DNA from: Candidatus Enterousia sp.
GTDB taxonomy: Bacteria; Pseudomonadota; Alphaproteobacteria; Rs-D84
Length of the DNA stretch: 64,000 nt
Assembly: GCA_045634865.1 (NCBI GenBank)
Contig: JAZRBB010000002.1
Location: 197,162 to 261,161, forward strand
Direction of reading: 5' to 3'
The translations under genes were made by a program, and so were the position numbers. The notes under the pieces are model-generated. The model did no database searches. It was not told the origin of the DNA and saw only the letters and a program-made list of their open reading frames with translations. This document shows, piece by piece, positions 12,683 to 19,731 of this stretch; position 1 is the stretch's first letter, and every line of letters begins with the position of its first letter.

Positions 12683-14593
12683 ATGAAGGAAAATATGAAA
12701 GCAGGAAAGATGAAATCTTTATTTATGTTCATAGTTGGCTGTTTTTACGCCATGTGCGCGCATTCAGCGGTTTCTCTTTTTTCGGATTATGGGCAAATCC
12801 AAAATGTCCAAAATTATTCTACAAACCCGTTTTGGTCACCAAACGCGCCATATAATCAAAAATTACCACAACCTGTGTATGTCCAGGGTAATGCTGTAAC
12901 CACCGAAGAATGCATAAATGTTATTCAATCCGCTGTTGCGTTTCAATGTGCTGCGCGCGATAATTGCAGAAACACCGCATTGACCGACATACGACCTGCA
13001 ATAATTGTTCAGTTGTCTAATCTACCTGGCAAGGCTTACAGTACCGCATGCGCGGGCTATCTGGACGGTGTGTTCGAATCGTACGTGGCTCAGTTTGGCA
13101 ATAATGCCCCTACGCGTCAGGTTGCATTTCCGGCTGGAACAGTTCCAAATTCAACATTAAATAATACAAACACAAACACGATTCAAATAAAAAATCCGTA
13201 TGAAGTTAAAACGCCCCAATGGCAACAGGAAATAGATGAACGAAGTCGTGAATTACAGGAATTACAGTCTGAAAATGGTGCGGGCAATTATGGATTGTCC
13301 GCAACTACGTTTCCAACGACATATAACGATTTGTCTTTCACTGACCGCATGGCAAACGAAGCAGCAGGTTATGCACCATACAAAGATAAAAGCGCATATA
13401 AAACAATAAATGTTAAAAGTGGTGACGAATGGTGCAAAGAACACCAAGGTTCCAAGGAATGTAAAGAATACGAAGAACAACAAAAATTGGCACAACAATC
13501 TAAGAATTCAACCAACCCAAACAACACTAAACAATCAACAACCACAAAACAATCAACAAACAAAGAAATACGTACTGATGCGGCAGAAATTGTTAAATTA
13601 CTGCAACCCGCTAACAAGGATCAAGAGTTCTTTTTTACTTCACTAGCGACAGATTACGTGACAGAAAAAGCAAAAAACTCATCGTTAGTTTTGGACAATC
13701 AGTTTTTATATGATTTTTTTTCTAGTAACAGTGGCGTTGATCGCATAAACACCTTCAAGGCTGGTTTACAAAACCTGGAATCTAAACAAGCAACCAAGGC
13801 AGCCAACATCGATATCAATTGGCAAGAAGCCGTAACCAAAATATCAACATTATTGGATGATAATAAAAAGTTATATGGCGCCATGGTATGCGAAAACAAT
13901 CGTTCTTATGAAGTTGGTATAGAAACGGCTTTGTGGGCAGCCACCGTAGGTGCTACAATTGCCACATTTTATGTTGGCGGTGCAGGTGGTGCAGGAACTG
14001 CAGCTGCTGGAACCGCGGCAAAAGTAGGAATTAAAACTCTTGCAAAAGCAGCGTTAAAACACGCTGTCACAACAGGGCTTAAATGGGCCATCTTAACTGC
14101 GGCTGGTGCCATTATTATAAATACAAAAGGTTCTTGGAATTATCCCAAAACTAACATTAATCAAACAAGTTTTGCCAAATCATCTGCAGGATTGCTTTAC
14201 AGTTTAGTTGACAGCGAACCAAGAACAGATATAGTGAATTGTCAAGGATTGGACGTAGCAGACCGAAAAAAATGTTACAGTGTATGCGGATACCCTGGCG
14301 CACCAAATGATGAACTGAACGAAAAAGTACTATCCGAAGTTATGGGTTCACGTTATTGTGTAAGCACAGAAGACTTTACTTTGTATGATATTAACACCAG
14401 AAAACCATTGATGATGACGTCAGCGCAATATAACCAAGTAATAGATAAACTGGCATTAATCAAAGACAAAGGTGGCTGTGATTGGAATGAAGATGACGTA
14501 GATATGTTTACAGGACGATATATTTATGATCCAAACACTATGGAACCGTCGTCATATTTATTGATTGAAAAAGTTGATCGTCTTGATGATTAA
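12683..14593 (+). CDS. Hypothetical secreted Cys-rich protein with a Gly/Ala-rich hydrophobic (glycine-zipper) segment
   Basis: Signal peptide MKSLFMFIVGCFYAMCAHSA. Thr/Asn/Gln-rich linker. GGAGGAGTAAAGTAAKVGIK...LTAAGAIIIN hydrophobic segment. Multiple Cys. Start ambiguous between 12683 and 12695. Confidence 0.6.
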   Translation: MKENMKAGKMKSLFMFIVGCFYAMCAHSAVSLFSDYGQIQNVQNYSTNPFWSPNAPYNQKLPQPVYVQGNAVTTEECINVIQSAVAFQCAARDNCRNTALTDIRPAIIVQLSNLPGKAYSTACAGYLDGVFESYVAQFGNNAPTRQVAFPAGTVPNSTLNNTNTNTIQIKNPYEVKTPQWQQEIDERSRELQELQSENGAGNYGLSATTFPTTYNDLSFTDRMANEAAGYAPYKDKSAYKTINVKSGDEWCKEHQGSKECKEYEEQQKLAQQSKNSTNPNNTKQSTTTKQSTNKEIRTDAAEIVKLLQPANKDQEFFFTSLATDYVTEKAKNSSLVLDNQFLYDFFSSNSGVDRINTFKAGLQNLESKQATKAANIDINWQEAVTKISTLLDDNKKLYGAMVCENNRSYEVGIETALWAATVGATIATFYVGGAGGAGTAAAGTAAKVGIKTLAKAALKHAVTTGLKWAILTAAGAIIINTKGSWNYPKTNINQTSFAKSSAGLLYSLVDSEPRTDIVNCQGLDVADRKKCYSVCGYPGAPNDELNEKVLSEVMGSRYCVSTEDFTLYDINTRKPLMMTSAQYNQVIDKLALIKDKGGCDWNEDDVDMFTGRYIYDPNTMEPSSYLLIEKVDRLDD

Positions 14594-14668: not shown

Positions 14669-14983
14669 ATGAAAAAAATATTATTCATCATAATTACATT
14701 TATATCTATGTGCGGCAATACGTTCGGGTACCAGGTATTATCTACCAAAGAATTTGGCAAAAACGATGCAAAGAATCAAAACGTCGTTGTTAAATGCACA
14801 ACCGATACTGGCAAGTTGTCTGCCGAAACATGTTCTTTGCGCAGATATGCAAAATGCACAGACAAAGAAAAAAAGAATTGTAATCAATGGCAACCTTGGC
14901 GCGACTTACGCGATTCCAATGCTACATATGCAGATTGGAAATCCGCTGCATCTGCTTGTTGCAAGAAAAAGGGGTTAAGGTAA
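14669..14983 (+). CDS. Small secreted Cys-rich protein (104 aa, 8 Cys)
   Basis: Signal peptide MKKILFIIITFISMCGNTFG. No known motif. Confidence 0.5.
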   Translation: MKKILFIIITFISMCGNTFGYQVLSTKEFGKNDAKNQNVVVKCTTDTGKLSAETCSLRRYAKCTDKEKKNCNQWQPWRDLRDSNATYADWKSAASACCKKKGLR

Positions 14984-15148
14984 AGTTGGCTAATCAGCCA
15001 CAAGCATTTAATGTGGGCGGACTCCCTCGCACGCATATAAAATATGCGGCTGCGGGCAAAACGTAACGATTTGGTCGCGTTTTACTTACCAAATCTACTT
15101 ATTTTCGAACCAAACAACTTCGTTGTACGGTCGAATACCACAAACTAT

Positions 15149-15208
15149 ATCCACCACAAAAAAAGAACCACACAAAGTGGTTCGTTTTTTGTGGTGGATG
15201 TGGGCGGA
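15149..15208. repeat. Large perfect hairpin (atccaccacaaaaaaagaaccac...gtggttcgttttttgtggtggat) followed by a 22-bp duplicate of the tRNA-Val 3' end (ttttgtggtggatgtgggcgga)
   Basis: The 22-mer at 15187-15208 is identical to 15362-15383, which is the 3' end of the intact tRNA-Val. A second similar hairpin lies at ~15325-15366. Confidence 0.7.
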
Positions 15209-15366
15209 TTGGTCTCGTTCACACTCGACCTCACTACGCTCATCGGCATAAGCCGACCGCCATACTTCCGTCTGGCTTTCGCTTGTAGTCGAACCGCCAG
15301 CCGCCGTTTCTTCGTCACCCCCAACCACAAAATAAAAAATAGGGCATTCGCCCATTTTTTATTTTG

Positions 15367-15443
15367 TGGTGGATGTGGGCGGACTCGAACCGCCGACCCC
15401 TACGATGTGAACGTAGTGCTCTAACCAACTGAGCCACACATCC
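15367..15443 (-). tRNA. tRNA-Val (anticodon CAC)
   Basis: Reverse complement GGATGTGTGGCTCAGTTGGTTAGAGCACTACGTTCACATCGTAGGGGTCGGCGGTTCGAGTCCGCCCACATCCACCA. Cloverleaf with anticodon loop TTCACAT. Confidence 0.85.
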
Positions 15444-15602
15444 AAAAACCTAATAAAAAACCGCGTTTTGCGGTTATAATGCTTTTGTCCGTATTCGCTA
15501 TCGCTACGGCGAGACACTCAATTTTCTTAATTGTGCGCTTGTAATCACCCACAAAATTTTTTAATTTTGCGGGGCCCGAAGCGCGCGCAATAACGAAAAT
15601 CG

Positions 15603-15741: not shown

Positions 15742-15817
15742 TGGTGGAGCTGATGAGATTCGAACTCACGACCTCTGCATTGCGAACGCAGCGCTCTACC
15801 AACTGAGCTACAACCCC
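15742..15817 (-). tRNA. tRNA-Ala (anticodon CGC)
   Basis: Reverse complement GGGGTTGTAGCTCAGTTGGTAGAGCGCTGCGTTCGCAATGCAGAGGTCGTGAGTTCGAATCTCATCAGCTCCACCA. G3:U70 identity pair present. Confidence 0.85.
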
Positions 15818-15841: not shown

Positions 15842-15928
15842 TGGTGGGCATAAGAAGACTCGAACTTCCAAGGTATTGCTACCACTAGTACCTGAAACTA
15901 GCGCGTCTACCAATTCCGCCATATGCCC
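15842..15928 (-). tRNA. tRNA-Leu (anticodon CAG), long variable arm
   Basis: Reverse complement GGGCATATGGCGGAATTGGTAGACGCGCTAGTTTCAGGTACTAGTGGTAGCAATACC..GGAAGTTCGAGTCTTCTTATGCCCACCA. Confidence 0.8.
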
Positions 15929-16067
15929 GTAAAAAGCACAAGGAATAATAAAACATATTCGCAACTTTTGCAACAAGAAAAAACAAAAAATTTACAAAAA
16001 ATATATTAAAAACTATGTAATTTTACTTGCCCCATATGGCATATTTCTGATAAAATTATAGCCAGAG

Positions 16068-18584
16068 ATGAAGAAAATTCTGACTTTTGTATTTACCACA
16101 ATTGTCTGCGTGTTTGGCGCGGACGCTGCAATACGTGACGAAAACACCACACAACGCGGAAAAAACACATCTGTCACAACAACACAAAACACACGTTCGA
16201 TAACTAATCGTTCTGCAATCAAGAAATCTGTTTCAGCGCGCACAGCGGGTTCTGTGAGCGTATTAAAATCACGCTCGGCATCACAAAATGTTGCGACACG
16301 AACACCGATGATACAAACAACAAAATCGCAACGTAGTGCCACAGTTAAAAAGCAAAACGTATTATCGCGTGCGGCAACCCAGACCAGTAATATCAATACT
16401 ACCGAAACACGCACTGGTGCCGAATACGAACAATGCAAAACCGCATTTTTTACTTGTATGGATCAGTTCTGCCAACTGAAAAACGATAATTTCAGAAGAT
16501 GTTCTTGCAATGACAAGGTGTTTAAGTACCAGGAAATTTCTGACACATACCAAAGCGCGAATGAACGTTTAACTGAATTCACTGAAAATCTTGATATCAT
16601 TGGCATGACAGCAGCCCAGGCAACCGCAATGAAAACCTCTACCGAGGGTGAAGACGCTTTGACCGAAGATAAATCGGCGTCCAAACAATTACTCCAGGCA
16701 ATTATGAATGCTATCAAGGGCGAAGATTCAACGGTTGGTGGAAAATATCAGAATCTGAACAGTTTGGTTATTTCGCCAGATATGTCAAACGCGTTTGGTA
16801 TGAATGATTATGGTCAAATTATCGCGTCTTATAACGGTGCAAATTTATACAAGGCTGTATATCCACAATGTCGTAATGCTGTCAAAGAAGATTGTAATAA
16901 CGCATCCTTGCAACGCGCAGTAAATGCATATTTAATGGCAATTGAACAAGATTGCAATACTGTTGAATCTGCTTTGTATGAAAAACAGAAAACATTAAAA
17001 GCATCAACATACGAAAGCAGTGCTATGCTGGATTTGGCACGCGTAGAAAATCGCCAAACACATAATTCTGATGATATTTCAACATGCTTGGCCAATGTAG
17101 AATCCGCAATCCAAAGTGAAGAGGTTTGTGGTGTCGCATATCATAAATGCTTGGATAACGGACAATTTATTGATGTAATGACTGGTGCGCCACTGACCGG
17201 TGTGAAAAACTTTTATGAATTGGGAACCTTGTTGACATTTAAAACAAATGAAAATATTCAGAACCAAAAATTATCTACTATCACAAGCAACAGGGATTTT
17301 GTTCAATTTTTTGAGAACAAGACCAAGAAATTTGCAACAGACGCTTTGGATAAATGCACAGAAAAATCTGATTATGTGTGGCAACAATATCTGGACCGCG
17401 CCTTGTTGGACATATACTATGCACAACAATCAAAGGTTAAAACCATTAAAAACAGTTGTTTTGATTTAGTAGCTGCATGTTATGACAACCAAACAGCCGC
17501 CATTGAAACTGCCATGGCTAATTTAACTGGGGAATACTCTATAGATCTTCAACCCGCTACATTGAAATTAACCCAAGAAATGTGCGACGATTACATAGAA
17601 TCTTGCAACAGCATGTTCGCTGGTGATGTAATAAAAGATTATATGAACAAAAAAACAGTGTCTGATTCTGAAAAAGCATGCCGTAAAATCGCCCAAAATT
17701 GTTTTGATAGTTTTGGCGGTGCTGGATACGAAAACTTTTATTCATTGCAAAACGATGTAATCAAAGCTGGCAAAGCACTGGATTGGTTCACTTTATACAA
17801 TTACGATGACAGCGGTAAAATTTTATCGCCCTGTGCCCAAGAATTAAATAATACCGCAGGTTGCAATTCCAAAGAAGTACTGGAACATACATTTGGTGGC
17901 TTTGATAAACATGCTGATGGTGATTACAGGTACATAGAAGACCATATCGACTATGACAGACATCTACGTTCATCAGGCGTTGCGAGTGAGGTTTATACAC
18001 AAATTATGGCAAGTTTGTCTGCCCAGTGTGAACAGATTCATGGTTTCTTTGTAGAGGCACACCTTGCAACATCTTATGGTTATACACAGAGCAACTTTTG
18101 TCAGATAAATAGTGGTAGTTTTATTTTTGTCGCAGGCAACAACAACACTTTGGGGTATTGGTACAATTTCAAAAAAGATGAAAACATGTGTCCGAAGGGG
18201 TATGCTTCCAAGATAGATACCCAGTCATGGGGTATGTGTTCATGTTGGGAAAATGGAAATTATCGCAGCAAAAACGGCCAAACAGAAACATGTATGCCAT
18301 TGCTACCTGTACCAAATGATGCGGTTGATAACTACACAATTTCTGACGGCGACCTCTGCACAGATGACGCAGTTAAAGACGCCACCAGCACAACAGGAGG
18401 TAAACAATACACTTATGATGTATGGTGTCAACAAACCGTTATGTCATCCAGAAGGCAAATCTGTCCCAGAATGCAAATAACAACCACCGACGACAACTCA
18501 CAAAAGATTTTTTGTGCATACAACAAAAACGACACGAAGAAGGTCATCAACGCAACAAAAGATCAAAAATTGCACAATCAATAA
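16068..18584 (+). CDS. Hypothetical large secreted Cys-rich protein (838 aa)
   Basis: Signal peptide MKKILTFVFTTIVCVFGADA. Ser/Thr/Arg-rich low-complexity N-terminal region, then many Cys. Promoter-like TTACTT-N17-GATAAAAT upstream. Confidence 0.6.
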   Translation: MKKILTFVFTTIVCVFGADAAIRDENTTQRGKNTSVTTTQNTRSITNRSAIKKSVSARTAGSVSVLKSRSASQNVATRTPMIQTTKSQRSATVKKQNVLSRAATQTSNINTTETRTGAEYEQCKTAFFTCMDQFCQLKNDNFRRCSCNDKVFKYQEISDTYQSANERLTEFTENLDIIGMTAAQATAMKTSTEGEDALTEDKSASKQLLQAIMNAIKGEDSTVGGKYQNLNSLVISPDMSNAFGMNDYGQIIASYNGANLYKAVYPQCRNAVKEDCNNASLQRAVNAYLMAIEQDCNTVESALYEKQKTLKASTYESSAMLDLARVENRQTHNSDDISTCLANVESAIQSEEVCGVAYHKCLDNGQFIDVMTGAPLTGVKNFYELGTLLTFKTNENIQNQKLSTITSNRDFVQFFENKTKKFATDALDKCTEKSDYVWQQYLDRALLDIYYAQQSKVKTIKNSCFDLVAACYDNQTAAIETAMANLTGEYSIDLQPATLKLTQEMCDDYIESCNSMFAGDVIKDYMNKKTVSDSEKACRKIAQNCFDSFGGAGYENFYSLQNDVIKAGKALDWFTLYNYDDSGKILSPCAQELNNTAGCNSKEVLEHTFGGFDKHADGDYRYIEDHIDYDRHLRSSGVASEVYTQIMASLSAQCEQIHGFFVEAHLATSYGYTQSNFCQINSGSFIFVAGNNNTLGYWYNFKKDENMCPKGYASKIDTQSWGMCSCWENGNYRSKNGQTETCMPLLPVPNDAVDNYTISDGDLCTDDAVKDATSTTGGKQYTYDVWCQQTVMSSRRQICPRMQITTTDDNSQKIFCAYNKNDTKKVINATKDQKLHNQ

Positions 18585-18606: not shown

Positions 18607-19731
18607 TTATTCTGCTGAAATATCAGATGCAATTATGCTGGCAGGATTTTGATTTCCATGTTTCCATTTTGTGTCTGCACTTTTCAATTCTGCAATCATT
18701 TGTTTTCTGGCCAATGGCAAAGTCAATTGTTGCAAGCAATTTATTATATTATACGATGTGGCATTGCGTCCCAGTAATTCAGGATATATCATCTTGTTCA
18801 TCAATATATTTACCAAAGACACCCATTTAATTTTCAATAATATATGCCCCAACATTATTGTCAAAGGATTCATTTTATAAACAACGATTGCAGGTATATG
18901 CATTATTGCCAACTCTGCAGAAACCGTTCCGCTGGCCACTATCGCAATATATGTATTTGCATATAAATCATAGCGTTGACTTGCGGGTATTATTGTCGGT
19001 TTGATTTTCCAATTTTTAATATCTTTCTTTATATAGGCGTCTGTTGTTTCCACAGTCGGAATAACATATTTATAATCGCGATAACCACAATCAAACAACA
19101 TATCGACAGTCTTGTGAAACACCGGCAACAATTTTTTTACTTCGTTCATACGACTGCCCGGAACCAAAGTGATTATTTTGTCTTTCGATTCGGTTGCTAC
19201 AAACTTATCCAATCCATCTGCAATTGGATGTCCAACAGCGACTGTATTCAATCCATATTTGGTAAAATAGGGCACCTCGAAATCAAAAAAAGCATATAAT
19301 TTATCAAAAATTTTAGCGTATTTTTTTGCCCGCCATTTTCCCCACGCCCAAACCTGGGGCGCAACAACATGATAAAACCGCATAGATTCAGAATTGTTTT
19401 GCTTTCTGACCTGTTTCACAACAGATTTTGCAAATCCTGGCGAATCTATGGTTAAAACAACATCTGGTTTTTCTTGTAATATGGCATTTACTGTTTCTTT
19501 GATACGACTTGTCAAAGTCTTGGCATGCGCCAATACCTCAAATACACCCAAAACAGATAAATCAGACATCGGAAATAAAGATTGCAGTCCCATTTGTTGC
19601 ATATGTTGACCACCAATGCCAACAAATTTAACATCGGGCATCTCACGCATAATTTTAGCGCCCAGGACATCGCCTGAAACCTCTCCTGCGATAATAAAAA
19701 TCTTTTTCGGGGCAGATTTAGTGTTTGTCAT
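18607..19731 (-). CDS. lpxB: Lipid-A-disaccharide synthase
   Basis: N-terminus KIFIIAGEVSGDVLGAKIMREM...VGIGG and ~375 aa length match LpxB (GT19). Confidence 0.85.
   Translation of the reverse strand: MTNTKSAPKKIFIIAGEVSGDVLGAKIMREMPDVKFVGIGGQHMQQMGLQSLFPMSDLSVLGVFEVLAHAKTLTSRIKETVNAILQEKPDVVLTIDSPGFAKSVVKQVRKQNNSESMRFYHVVAPQVWAWGKWRAKKYAKIFDKLYAFFDFEVPYFTKYGLNTVAVGHPIADGLDKFVATESKDKIITLVPGSRMNEVKKLLPVFHKTVDMLFDCGYRDYKYVIPTVETTDAYIKKDIKNWKIKPTIIPASQRYDLYANTYIAIVASGTVSAELAIMHIPAIVVYKMNPLTIMLGHILLKIKWVSLVNILMNKMIYPELLGRNATSYNIINCLQQLTLPLARKQMIAELKSADTKWKHGNQNPASIIASDISAE

What the first reader, a model, noticed from the sequence alone, without database searches (positions are those of the whole stretch)
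15140..15390. Duplicated 3' end of tRNA-Val with paired large hairpins and scrambled tRNA-like fragments: remnant of an integration or excision event, or a decayed tRNA copy
The 22-mer ttttgtggtggatgtgggcgga (the 3' acceptor/T-arm end of tRNA-Val) is repeated exactly at 15187-15208 and 15362-15383. Each copy is preceded by a long near-perfect palindrome (15149-15199 and ~15325-15366). Between them lie tRNA-like fragments (tcgaaccgcc). Direct repeats of a tRNA 3' end are the classic footprint of integrase-mediated insertion into a tRNA gene, yet only ~150 bp separates them here. That suggests either an excised element that left an att scar or a tandemly duplicated and decayed tRNA.
Basis: seen in the sequence. 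Interest (0 to 1): 0.55.

Follow-up and report, generated by a model that had tools for sequence, protein, structure and literature searches.

The report
RtT-like repeat units after tRNA-Val
The duplicated tRNA-Val tail is real, but it marks a short tandem array of conserved, folded RNA-like units built partly from the tRNA's own 3' end, the same design as the poorly understood RtT repeats behind the E. coli tyrosine tRNA genes, and not the scar of an integrated element.

Summary
The 22-mer occurs exactly twice (15187-15208, 15362-15383), both hairpins are real, and a third partial copy lies at 15011-15024.

Everything sits on the minus strand, downstream of tRNA-Val(CAC) (15443-15367). The layout is a 2.1-copy tandem array with periods of 175 and 187 bp. 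Each repeat holds the tRNA 3' end, a terminator-like hairpin and a structured body of about 110 nt (Unit B 15192-15324; Unit C 15011-15148).

Eight orthologous loci from related uncultured gut and rumen Alphaproteobacteria carry 0 or 1 such unit at this site. None carries a larger element or a second intact tRNA-Val.

The bodies are more conserved than flanking genes and show compensatory base-pair changes. They begin with an inverted copy of the tRNA T-arm region. A direct copy follows, split by an insert of about 80 nt.

E. coli RtT units (tyrT operon, 178-bp repeats) have the same design. A model built only from these units finds all four E. coli RtT units. RtT is the only Rfam family that touches Unit B, but at 15.5 bits against a threshold of 45.

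Verdict: an RtT-like tRNA-operon trailer RNA, a new variant of a known kind. Its function is unknown.

The parts
15367..15443 (-). tRNA-Val(CAC), intact, CCA encoded. It is the last gene of a minus-strand tRNA cluster: Leu-CAG 15842-15928, Ala-CGC 15742-15817, Leu-UAA 15604-15690.
   Evidence: ARAGORN; Rfam tRNA 69.4 bits.
15362..15383 (-). Repeat copy X1: T-stem 3' strand, acceptor 3' strand, ACCA and CAAAA. This is the tRNA's own 3' end.
   Evidence: Exact 22-mer.
15324..15370 (-). Hairpin 1: a GGGC/GCCC core extended by A/T runs, with a 5' arm that includes the tRNA's ACCA end. It is terminator-like in both directions.
   Evidence: Inverted repeat I3; -29.7 kcal/mol, z -7.6. The simple terminator scan did not call it.
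15192..15324 (-). Unit B, an RtT-like body. Segments: a (GGGGGTGAC) 15314-15322; b (GAAACGGC) 15303-15310; c (GGCGGTTC, then GA) 15289-15298; insert with two hairpins 15211-15288; copy of the tRNA 3' end, ending in CCA at 15192.
   Evidence: Model R1 134 bits. It is the only Rfam family touching the region: RtT, 15.5 bits, full-length. L053 and L059 carry orthologous units. GC is 0.55-0.59, the local maximum.
15187..15208 (-). Repeat copy X2, the 3' end of Unit B.
   Evidence: Exact 22-mer.
15149..15199 (-). Hairpin 2: a GAACCAC/GTGGTTC core plus A/T runs and the ATCCACCA end. It is terminator-like on both strands, and L004 keeps it directly after its tRNA-Val.
   Evidence: Inverted repeat I1; terminator scan hits on both strands; -33.9 kcal/mol; alignment to L004.
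15011..15148 (-). Unit C, a second and divergent unit. A closing helix (TGTGG 15138-15142 with CCACA 15012-15016) encloses three hairpins. Here it ends in GAGTCCGCCCACAT and has lost CCACCA; the L004 copy keeps CCACCA.
   Evidence: 91% identical to L004 against 72-78% for flanking genes; consensus fold; compensatory pairs against L052 and L050; R1 15.3 bits here and 31.4 bits in L004.
15011..15024 (-). Repeat copy X3, partial: T-loop GAGT, T-stem 3' strand and CACAT.
15945..15973 (-). The only sigma-70-like promoter match near the cluster. It lies upstream of tRNA-Leu(CAG) and is the presumed source of transcripts that reach the units.
   Evidence: 9 of 12 consensus positions matched. This is a consensus match only.

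Best explanation
The 22-mer repeat marks the period of a short tandem array downstream of tRNA-Val on the tRNA's strand. Each period (175 and 187 bp) consists of three parts: the last 17-22 nt of the tRNA, a terminator-like hairpin, and a structured body of about 110 nt.

The body is built in four segments:
- an inverted copy of the tRNA's T-arm and acceptor region (segments a and b);
- a direct copy of the T-stem 5' strand plus TTCGA (segment c);
- an insert of about 80 nt with two hairpins;
- the rest of the tRNA 3' end (segment d, then CACATCC-ACCA).

As RNA it folds into a closing helix P0 (a:d), a hairpin P1 (b:c), two or three further hairpins, and a single-stranded tail ending in CCA. 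This is the design of the E. coli RtT units in the tyrT operon.

Shown: the anatomy, the conservation, the compensatory changes and the shared architecture with RtT.

Inferred:
- The units are transcribed by read-through from the tRNA operon.
- They are trimmed to a discrete RNA of about 130 nt by the machinery that matures the tRNA 3' end, as reported for RtT.
- The array arose by inverted plus direct duplication of the tRNA 3' third around the hairpin.
- Copy number changes by recombination between the repeats, which would explain relatives with 0, 1 or 2 units.

The cellular role is unknown. It is probably regulatory or processing-related, as proposed for RtT.
For: 1. Orthologous loci. L004, L049-L053 and L059/60 carry tRNA-Val, a hairpin, and one unit ending in that genome's own tRNA-Val 3' end. 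Periods are 168-186 bp.

2. Selection. Inter-tRNA spacers are not alignable between the window and L004, yet Unit C is about 91-94% identical. The Unit B insert differs at about 3 of 71 compared bases between the window and L059, while tRNA-Val itself differs at 11 of 77 (read). Leaders and hairpin loops do differ, which argues against recent transfer.

3. Compensatory changes.
- P1 is GAACAGCC/GGCGGTTC in L053 and GAAACAAC/GTTGGTTC in L059.
- In L059 segments c and d follow the resident tRNA's variant T stem, GTTGG/CCAAT.
- The C-type hairpin is TTTGGT/ACCAAA in one unit and TTTCAC/GTGAAA in another.
- One-sided changes keep G-U pairs only on the tRNA-sense strand.

4. E. coli tyrT/tyrV units have the same a-J-b-loop-c-GAC-insert-d-CCA order with Tyr-specific sequences. 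They repeat at 175/178 bp, and rttR is annotated on one unit.

5. Model R1 was built from five alphaproteobacterial units only. It finds all four E. coli RtT units full-length at 17.3-24.2 bits. In unit 1 all 15 pairs are standard pairs.

6. RtT is the only one of 4227 Rfam families touching Unit B, and its hit ends about 3 nt beyond the unit's CCA end (15189 against 15192).

7. Independent minimum-energy folds of L053, L050, L052 and E. coli RtT all give P0, P1, further hairpins and a free tail.

8. The inverted copy extends past what pairing needs. TGTGGGCGGAC in L053 is an 11/11 match, and CCGCCGA in L052 a 7/7 match, to the reverse complement of the tRNA (read).
Against: - The Rfam RtT score is 15.5 bits, far below the gathering score of 45.
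- Part of the R1 score is tRNA-derived. The tRNA-Val 3' third alone scores 18.6 bits, and tRNA plus leader 23-24 bits.
- Only about 7 distinct units are available. Covariation statistics are modest: 3 pairs with double changes, reached by 24 of 500 shuffles.
- P0 is imperfect in the window's Unit B (5 of 8 pairs) and in L059. There the leader pairs better with the acceptor strand instead.
- Homology with RtT cannot be told apart from convergence through a common generating mechanism.
- No promoter-like site lies next to the units, and there are no expression data.
- Close relatives L054, L055 and L056 lack units entirely, so the units are dispensable.
Confidence: 0.68

Rival explanations
1. 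The region is an att scar or a miniature, non-autonomous integrative element (CIME-like). A tyrosine integrase that crosses over in the T loop inserted DNA into tRNA-Val. The repeats are attL and attR, and the 153 bp between them is what remains, or a small element mobilised in trans.
For: - The repeat starts in the T loop and runs to the CCA end or beyond, as expected for T-loop-type tRNA integration (my own knowledge of tRNA att sites).
- Units are present or absent among close relatives.
- Unit B plus hairpin 1 is a clean 175-bp insertion relative to L004, flanked by the 22-mer.
- Hairpin 1 resembles the hairpins of L050 and L053, while hairpin 2 resembles that of L004, as if the unit brought its own terminator.
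Against: - None of the nine neighbours between 9.5 and 21.6 kb is an integrase or transposase.
- No relative has a larger element at the site.
- The body has no match in IMG/VR, phage or plasmid collections.
- The body shows compensatory changes and strand-specific G-U pairs, which a scar would not.
- Leaders and loops diverge while the interior is conserved, which fits vertical descent under selection.
- The same architecture exists in the E. coli tyrT repeats, where no mobile element is annotated.
- Recombination between the repeats explains gain and loss without an integrase.
Confidence: 0.12
2. The unit is a tandem duplicate of tRNA-Val that is decaying neutrally: a pseudogene with deletions and an insertion, and no function.
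For: - The unit holds tRNA-derived pieces in the right order: the T-stem 5' strand plus TTCGA, then the T-stem 3' strand, the acceptor strand and CCA.
- In L059 and Unit B the leader resembles the acceptor 5' strand (GGTATGT, GGGGGTG) and is followed by CGAAG, as in the L059-type anticodon stem.
- The window's Unit C has lost its CCACCA end.
- Some relatives lack units.
Against: - No relative shows a second intact tRNA-Val.
- ARAGORN and the Rfam tRNA model do not call the units.
- The interiors are more conserved than flanking genes, and for Unit B more than the tRNA itself.
- There are compensatory changes in P1 and in the hairpins.
- The 5' part is an inverted copy of the T arm, not a direct one, which a plain tandem duplicate does not explain.
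- E. coli has the same design next to a different tRNA.
Confidence: 0.1
3. The unit is a tmRNA-related gene, either a two-piece (permuted) alphaproteobacterial ssrA or a miniature relative. It would use the acceptor/T-arm end for charging.
For: - Weak Rfam tmRNA_permuted hit at 15315-15394: 24.4 bits, E 0.022.
- The units contain GGTTCGAC and end in CCA.
- The Unit B leader could form a G3-U70-like pair with the acceptor strand (read).
Against: - ARAGORN finds no tmRNA.
- The Rfam hit covers the real tRNA-Val T arm plus hairpin 1 and falls below the gathering score of 47.
- No frame or tag peptide is conserved between units, because loop length differences shift the frame (read).
- Most units have no proper acceptor stem.
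- The length is about 130 nt.
Confidence: 0.02

Closest known systems
RtT RNA / rttR and the 178-bp repeats of the E. coli tyrT-tyrV operon (Rfam RF00391)
   Same: - Both lie directly downstream of a tRNA gene on its strand.
- Both form a tandem array of similar period: 175/178 bp in E. coli, 168-187 bp here.
- Every unit ends with the last 17-20 nt of the resident tRNA, including CCA, and the repeat starts in the T loop.
- The unit starts with a segment complementary to the T-stem 3' and acceptor strands, followed by GA(R)GAA. Next comes a strand complementary to the T-stem 5' strand plus TTC, a short loop, and the T-stem 5' strand plus TTCGA(C). A hairpin-rich insert follows.
- The folds match: P0, P1, further hairpins and a free tail.
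- E. coli unit 1 shares the short motif AGCGAAAGC.AGA with Unit B.
(PMC3318445 for rttR being one repeat unit of the tyrT operon)
   Different: - The host tRNA is Val(CAC), not Tyr.
- The host is an uncultured alphaproteobacterium, not a gammaproteobacterium.
- The Rfam score is 15.5 bits against a threshold of 45.
- A terminator-like hairpin sits right after each CCA here, in place of the 57-nt unstructured spacer of E. coli.
- The insert is longer (about 80 against about 66 nt), comes in at least three sequence types (B, C and the L049 type), and is not alignable to the E. coli insert beyond a short motif.
- No protamine-like ORF (tpr) is present.
attL/attR repeats left by tyrosine-integrase elements in tRNA genes
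   Same: Direct repeats of the tRNA 3' part, starting in the T loop, with the tRNA gene kept intact.
   Different: There is no integrase and no cargo. Only 153 bp lie between the repeats, the content is conserved and structured, and no larger element occupies the site in any relative.
tRNA pseudogenes and tandem tRNA duplicates
   Same: The unit contains recognisable T-arm and acceptor pieces of the neighbouring tRNA.
   Different: It has no D arm and no anticodon arm. Its 5' module is an inverted copy of the T arm. It carries an insertion of about 80 nt after position 58 of the T loop, and it is under purifying selection.

Membership tests
RtT RNA (Rfam RF00391; tyrT-operon repeat units) | Lies downstream of a tRNA gene on the same strand and ends with a copy of that tRNA's 3' end, including CCA | tested here: met
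   Unit B ends TCCGCCCACATCCACCA at 15192, identical to tRNA-Val 15383-15367. The same holds in L004, L049-L053 and L059.
RtT RNA (Rfam RF00391; tyrT-operon repeat units) | Tandem repetition with a period near 178 bp | tested here: met
   Periods are 175 and 187 bp in the window and 168-186 bp in relatives. E. coli gives 175/178 bp.
RtT RNA (Rfam RF00391; tyrT-operon repeat units) | Outer helix between the unit's 5' segment and the copy of the T-stem 3' and acceptor strands, as in the Rfam consensus structure | tested here: inconclusive
   The helix has 6-7 of 8 pairs in L053, L050 and L052, and 9 of 9 in E. coli. It has only 5 of 8 in the window's Unit B and in L059, where an acceptor-like pairing is the alternative.
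RtT RNA (Rfam RF00391; tyrT-operon repeat units) | Score at or above the Rfam gathering threshold (45 bits) | tested here: not met
   15.5 bits, E 0.84-2. The match is full-length and is the only family matched in 15186-15342. The E. coli controls score 133-137 bits.
RtT RNA (Rfam RF00391; tyrT-operon repeat units) | Reciprocal recognition: a model built from these units finds bona fide RtT units | tested here: met
   R1 hits all four E. coli units full-length at 24.2, 17.5, 17.3 and 17.3 bits. E is 2e-5 to 7e-4 within L079, and 0.002-0.07 within 174 kb. Part of the score is tRNA-derived.
RtT RNA (Rfam RF00391; tyrT-operon repeat units) | Host gene is tRNA-Tyr (tyrT/tyrV) | tested here: not met
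   The host is tRNA-Val(CAC).
RtT RNA (Rfam RF00391; tyrT-operon repeat units) | A discrete RNA is processed out of the tRNA operon transcript | not testable with these tools
   There are no expression data. The only promoter-like site lies upstream of the tRNA cluster.
Integrase att scar or miniature integrative element | An integrase gene (or remnant) next to or between the repeats | tested here: not met
   Pfam on nine neighbouring proteins finds GcrA, Peptidase_A24, LpxB and LpxA-type domains, or nothing. Only spurious ORFs lie inside 15011-15366.
Integrase att scar or miniature integrative element | A larger element occupies the same site in some related genomes, or the inter-repeat DNA matches mobile-element DNA | tested here: not met
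   Eight orthologous loci hold 0 or 1 unit and no larger element. There are no hits in IMG/VR, phages or plasmids.
Integrase att scar or miniature integrative element | Direct repeats of the tRNA 3' part, with the tRNA kept intact | tested here: met
tRNA pseudogene (decayed tandem copy) | Residual cloverleaf detectable by tRNA finders, and neutral divergence | tested here: not met
   ARAGORN and the Rfam tRNA model give no hit in the units. The units are more conserved than spacers and flanking genes and show compensatory changes.
tmRNA (two-piece / permuted) | tRNA-like domain with a proper acceptor stem, plus a tag reading frame | tested here: not met
   ARAGORN finds no tmRNA. tmRNA_permuted scores 24.4 bits against 47, and that hit lies on the real tRNA T arm. 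No frame is conserved between units.

The most novel reading that the evidence does not exclude
RtT-like units may not be an enterobacterial curiosity. They may form a widespread class of RNAs templated on a tRNA. Each would be assembled from an inverted plus a direct copy of the 3' third of its neighbouring tRNA, whichever tRNA that is, wrapped around a conserved structured insert.

In this reading the 5' antisense module, which tracks the resident tRNA's T stem (Tyr GAAGG, Val GGCGG, Val GTTGG), acts on that specific tRNA or its precursor, affecting folding, processing or abundance. The internal sense copy keeps the module masked.

One further case turned up by chance, in an Omnitrophota MAG. 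A tRNA-Lys there has a 22-nt repeat of its 3' end 180 bp downstream (L005). This hints that the phenomenon reaches beyond Proteobacteria.
Probability: 0.2. Interest if true: 0.7.

Novelty: new variant of a known kind. Interest (0 to 1): 0.48.

Why it matters
RtT was described in 1991, and a recent preprint still calls its mode of action unknown (bioRxiv 10.1101/2024.07.17.603846). As far as I could find, it is reported only next to tRNA-Tyr in Gammaproteobacteria (E. coli and relatives; Thioalkalivibrio in PMC8092127).

A second lineage, with a different tRNA in another proteobacterial class, shows the same architecture. There the T-stem-matching segments have changed in step with the resident tRNA. 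This gives three things:
- comparative leverage on which parts of the RNA matter (P1, the GA(R)GAA junction, the insert hairpins);
- a concrete origin model, namely inverted plus direct duplication of the tRNA 3' third;
- a search rule for finding more cases.

It is also a practical warning. Direct repeats of a tRNA 3' end about 170-190 bp apart need not mean a mobile-element scar.

Tried and rejected
- **Integrase or mobile-element origin.** Three pattern scans of IMG/VR (Unit C core, a gapped T-arm pattern, Unit B core) gave 0 hits. blastn of 15005-15366 against phages and plasmids gave no match. Pfam on nine neighbours found no integrase.
- **tmRNA.** I considered it because the host is an alphaproteobacterium and tmRNA_permuted gave a weak hit. 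It was rejected (no conserved frame).
- **Small peptide in Unit B.** The ATG-led frame is not conserved, because loop length differences shift it (read).
- **T stem pairing across the insert (c:d).** This is possible (5/5 in several units, and it follows the L059 variant). The extended complementarity favours b:c and a:d, and c:d cannot be separated from homology to the tRNA.
- **Exact-protein look-up of the 838-aa neighbour.** Not on record.
- **Look-ups through homologues of the 104-aa protein.** L062-L078 show different synteny, have no tRNA-Val nearby, and were uninformative.
- **L001-L003.** In L001 and L002 only the first tRNA of the cluster (Leu-CAG) is found before the held sequence ends. 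L003's contig stops about 115 nt after tRNA-Leu(UAA). None reaches tRNA-Val.
- **Model R1 and Rfam on the L005 tRNA-Lys repeat.** Not RtT-like by either.
- **Bosl & Kersten 1991 (PMC329039).** The paper is not held, so statements about RtT processing rest on secondary citations and on my own knowledge.

Full report
**Observation**

The region was read on both strands. ARAGORN and Rfam place an intact tRNA-Val(CAC) at 15367-15443 on the minus strand. It is the last gene of a cluster: Leu-CAG, Ala-CGC, Leu-UAA, Val.

It has no other match in the window even with 3 mismatches, and none is expected by chance. On the tRNA's strand it reads TCCGCCCACATCCACCA+CAAAA. That is the T-stem 3' strand, the acceptor 3' strand, ACCA and five trailer bases.

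Both palindromes are real and very stable as RNA: -29.7 and -33.9 kcal/mol, z about -7.5. Because the gene is on the minus strand, they follow each copy. They look like terminators that work in both directions (calls hairpin 2 on both strands).

'tcgaaccgcc' (15289-15298) is the reverse complement of the T-stem 5' strand plus TTCGA. A third, partial copy (GAGTCCGCCCACAT) lies at 15011-15024. The layout on the minus strand is therefore:

tRNA-Val | hairpin 1 | Unit B (15324-15192) | hairpin 2 | Unit C (15148-15011)

The start-to-start spacings are 175 and 187 bp.

**Relatives**

LpxB (18607-19731) retrieved four related MAGs of uncultured Alphaproteobacteria, at 97, 81, 81 and 76% identity. A GcrA domain in a neighbouring protein agrees with that class.

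Only L004 reaches tRNA-Val. It has tRNA-Val, a hairpin like hairpin 2, and a Unit C that ends in GAGTCCGCCCACATCCACCA. It has no Unit B. In the same alignment the spacers between tRNAs cannot be aligned, yet hairpin 2 and Unit C are about 91-94% identical. Flanking genes are 72-78% identical.

A metagenome scan for two copies of the tRNA end 150-180 nt apart gave five contigs. All are syntenic with the window: tRNA-Leu(UAA), tRNA-Val, unit, then a homologue of the 104-aa ORF at 14669-14983. Each has exactly one unit ending in the tRNA's 3' end, usually followed by a near-copy of the first hairpin. The exact repeat is 17-52 nt long.

Further loci were fetched through homologues of the 104-aa protein:
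- L054 (92% aa), L055 (83%) and L056-58 (82%) have tRNA-Val plus a hairpin and no unit.
- L059/L060 (75%) have a tRNA-Val with a different T stem (GTTGG/CCAAT). Their B-type unit ends in GTCCAATCACATCCACCA, and its internal T-stem 5' copy is GTTGGTTCGAC.

So no relative has a larger element here, and none has two intact tRNA-Val genes. The site holds 0, 1 or 2 units.

**Anatomy of a unit**

All units share this order:
- a leader;
- segment a (GGCGGAC-like);
- a GAA junction;
- segment b (GAACCGCC-like);
- a short loop;
- segment c (GGCGGTTC) followed by GAC;
- an insert of about 80 nt with two hairpins;
- segment d (GTCCGCC), then CACATCC and ACCA.

Segment a is complementary to d, forming helix P0. 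Segment b is complementary to c, forming helix P1. Read together, a-GAA-b is an inverted copy of the tRNA's T arm and part of its acceptor strand.

This inverted copy extends beyond what pairing alone requires. In L053, TGTGGGCGGAC matches the reverse complement of the tRNA at 11 of 11 positions. In L052, CCGCCGA includes the complement of two variable-loop bases. This points to an origin by inverted plus direct duplication of the tRNA's 3' third, with a later or simultaneous insertion after T-loop position 58.

**Evidence for selection on an RNA fold**

- P1 keeps pairing through double changes: GAACAGCC/GGCGGTTC in L053 against GAAACAAC/GTTGGTTC in L059.
- In the C-type units the first insert hairpin changes from TTTGGT/ACCAAA to TTTCAC/GTGAAA, around a conserved 12-nt loop. 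The last hairpin changes from GCATAT/ATATGC to GGCAT/ATGCC to GACAAT/ATTGTC.
- In the B-type units only the loops vary. One hairpin has a GGTC-GA...GA-GACC frame with a distal stem of variable length and, in the window, a GTGA tetraloop (read).
- One-sided changes between the window and L004 keep G-U pairs only on the tRNA-sense strand.
- Unit B is the local GC maximum: 0.55-0.59 in a locus where flanking 120-nt windows run 0.23-0.46.

The counts are small. On five sequences, 83.8% of cells are paired against 20-42% when the partners are slid. Three pairs show double changes, a level reached by 24 of 500 shuffles.

**Link to RtT**

The design recalled the E. coli tyrT operon, so I fetched NC_000913 1286300-1288200. 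There, tyrT and tyrV are followed by units of 175/178-bp period. The last 19 nt of tRNA-Tyr occur six times: once in each of the two tRNA genes and once at the end of each of four units. rttR (171 nt) is annotated on the unit after tyrV and ends at that unit's CCA. [quoted passage not shown]

The E. coli unit reads GGGGAAGGA-TGA-GAACCTT-CGACT-AAGGTTC-GA(C/T), then an insert, then AAT-CCTTC-CCCCACC-ACCA. That is the same a-J-b-loop-c-GAC-insert-d order with Tyr-specific T-stem sequences.

Four computed results bear on the link:
- Rfam RtT scores the E. coli units at 133-137 bits.
- On the window, RtT is the only one of 4227 families touching Unit B. The match is full-length but reaches only 15.5 bits against a threshold of 45.
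- A covariance model built only from five alphaproteobacterial units (R1; P0 plus P1) finds all four E. coli units full-length at 24.2 and about 17.4 bits. In unit 1 all 15 pairs are standard pairs reached through compensatory substitutions. The first 55 positions are aligned with high posterior probability, including a shared AGCGAAAGC.AGA.
- Minimum-energy folds of L053, L050, L052 and E. coli RtT independently give P0, P1, two or three hairpins and a free tail of 7-8 nt ending in CCA.

One caveat applies. A tRNA 3' third alone scores 18.6 bits with R1. The scores therefore show a common architecture, not proven common descent.

**Interpretation**

The most economical reading is that the finding is one period of an RtT-like repeat array attached to tRNA-Val. 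Gain and loss (0, 1 or 2 units; Unit B absent in L004) follow naturally from recombination between the direct repeats.

The near-identity of the two hairpins within some genomes (52/52 in L049) fits recent duplication or gene conversion. So does the way segment d follows the resident tRNA. Segment b follows segment c, and that needs selection for P1.

Three steps are inferred by analogy with RtT: transcription by read-through from the operon promoter (one search finds a promoter-like site only upstream of tRNA-Leu-CAG), 3' trimming at the CCA, and a regulatory or processing role. [quoted passage not shown] None of these steps was tested here.

**Rivals**

The att-scar reading matches the shape of the repeat, but it fails on integrase, cargo, occupancy in relatives and database matches. 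It also does not explain the compensatory changes. Neutral decay of a tandem tRNA copy fails on conservation, on the inverted 5' module and on the E. coli parallel. tmRNA fails on every defining feature.

**Limits**

- Only about seven distinct units are available.
- The segment definitions and the alignment used for the model were partly chosen by eye.
- E-values from the shortened calibration are rough.
- The genome and metagenome scans are capped, so the taxonomic spread of such units is unknown.

Noticed in passing
L005:3580-3835 (minus strand): In a Candidatus Omnitrophota MAG, fetched only because of LpxB, tRNA-Lys(UUU) is followed 180 bp downstream by a 22-nt exact copy of its own 3' end (GAGTCCTTCGCGGCTCACCAGC). 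The repeat again starts in the T loop. The interval is not RtT-like by model R1 or Rfam, and its fold is not unusually stable.
   Followed up: partly
window 15011 and 18584; L004 11151-13910: Relative to L004, the segment 15011-18584 (Unit C, the tRNA cluster and the 838-aa gene) is inverted. One breakpoint falls inside the last bases of Unit C: CACAT|CCACCA in L004 against CACAT|TAAATG in the window. This is where the window's Unit C lost its CCA end.
   Followed up: partly
window 15481-15600; L004 11420-11850; L054 and L059 tRNA spacers: The spacers between the tRNAs carry repeated modules: CCRATTTTC...GAAAATTGAGTG, TCGCGCCGTAGCG..., and GCGAAGGCGGACGGAAAGCA. Copy number differs between relatives. 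A piece of them resembles the Unit B insert (GCGAAAGCCAGACGGAAG).
   Followed up: no
window 15459-15475 (minus strand): A terminator-like hairpin with a T run lies only 15 nt upstream of tRNA-Val, and relatives have the same. tRNA-Val and each unit are thus all preceded by a hairpin plus T run. These hairpins may be punctuation or attenuators rather than full stops.
   Followed up: no
window 12683-14593, 14669-14983, 16068-18584: Three neighbouring proteins (636, 104 and 838 aa) have signal-peptide-like N termini and are cysteine-rich. None has a Pfam match. The 104-aa protein has 445 homologues, and every source name shown for them is 'hypothetical protein' or blank. L060 carries a second, inverted copy of it.
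   Followed up: no
window 15217-15222 (loop of the second Unit B hairpin): The loop UGUGAA in the window's Unit B is complementary to the anticodon loop UUCACA of tRNA-Val. The L053 and L059 copies have unrelated loops, so this is probably coincidence (read).
   Followed up: partly
L001 (closest relative, LpxB 97%): The contig of the closest MAG ends at the first tRNA of the cluster (Leu-CAG). L002's held sequence ends about 76 nt past that tRNA, and L003's contig ends about 115 nt after tRNA-Leu(UAA), before tRNA-Val. The tRNA and repeat region seems to break short-read assemblies, which will bias any survey of these units.
   Followed up: no
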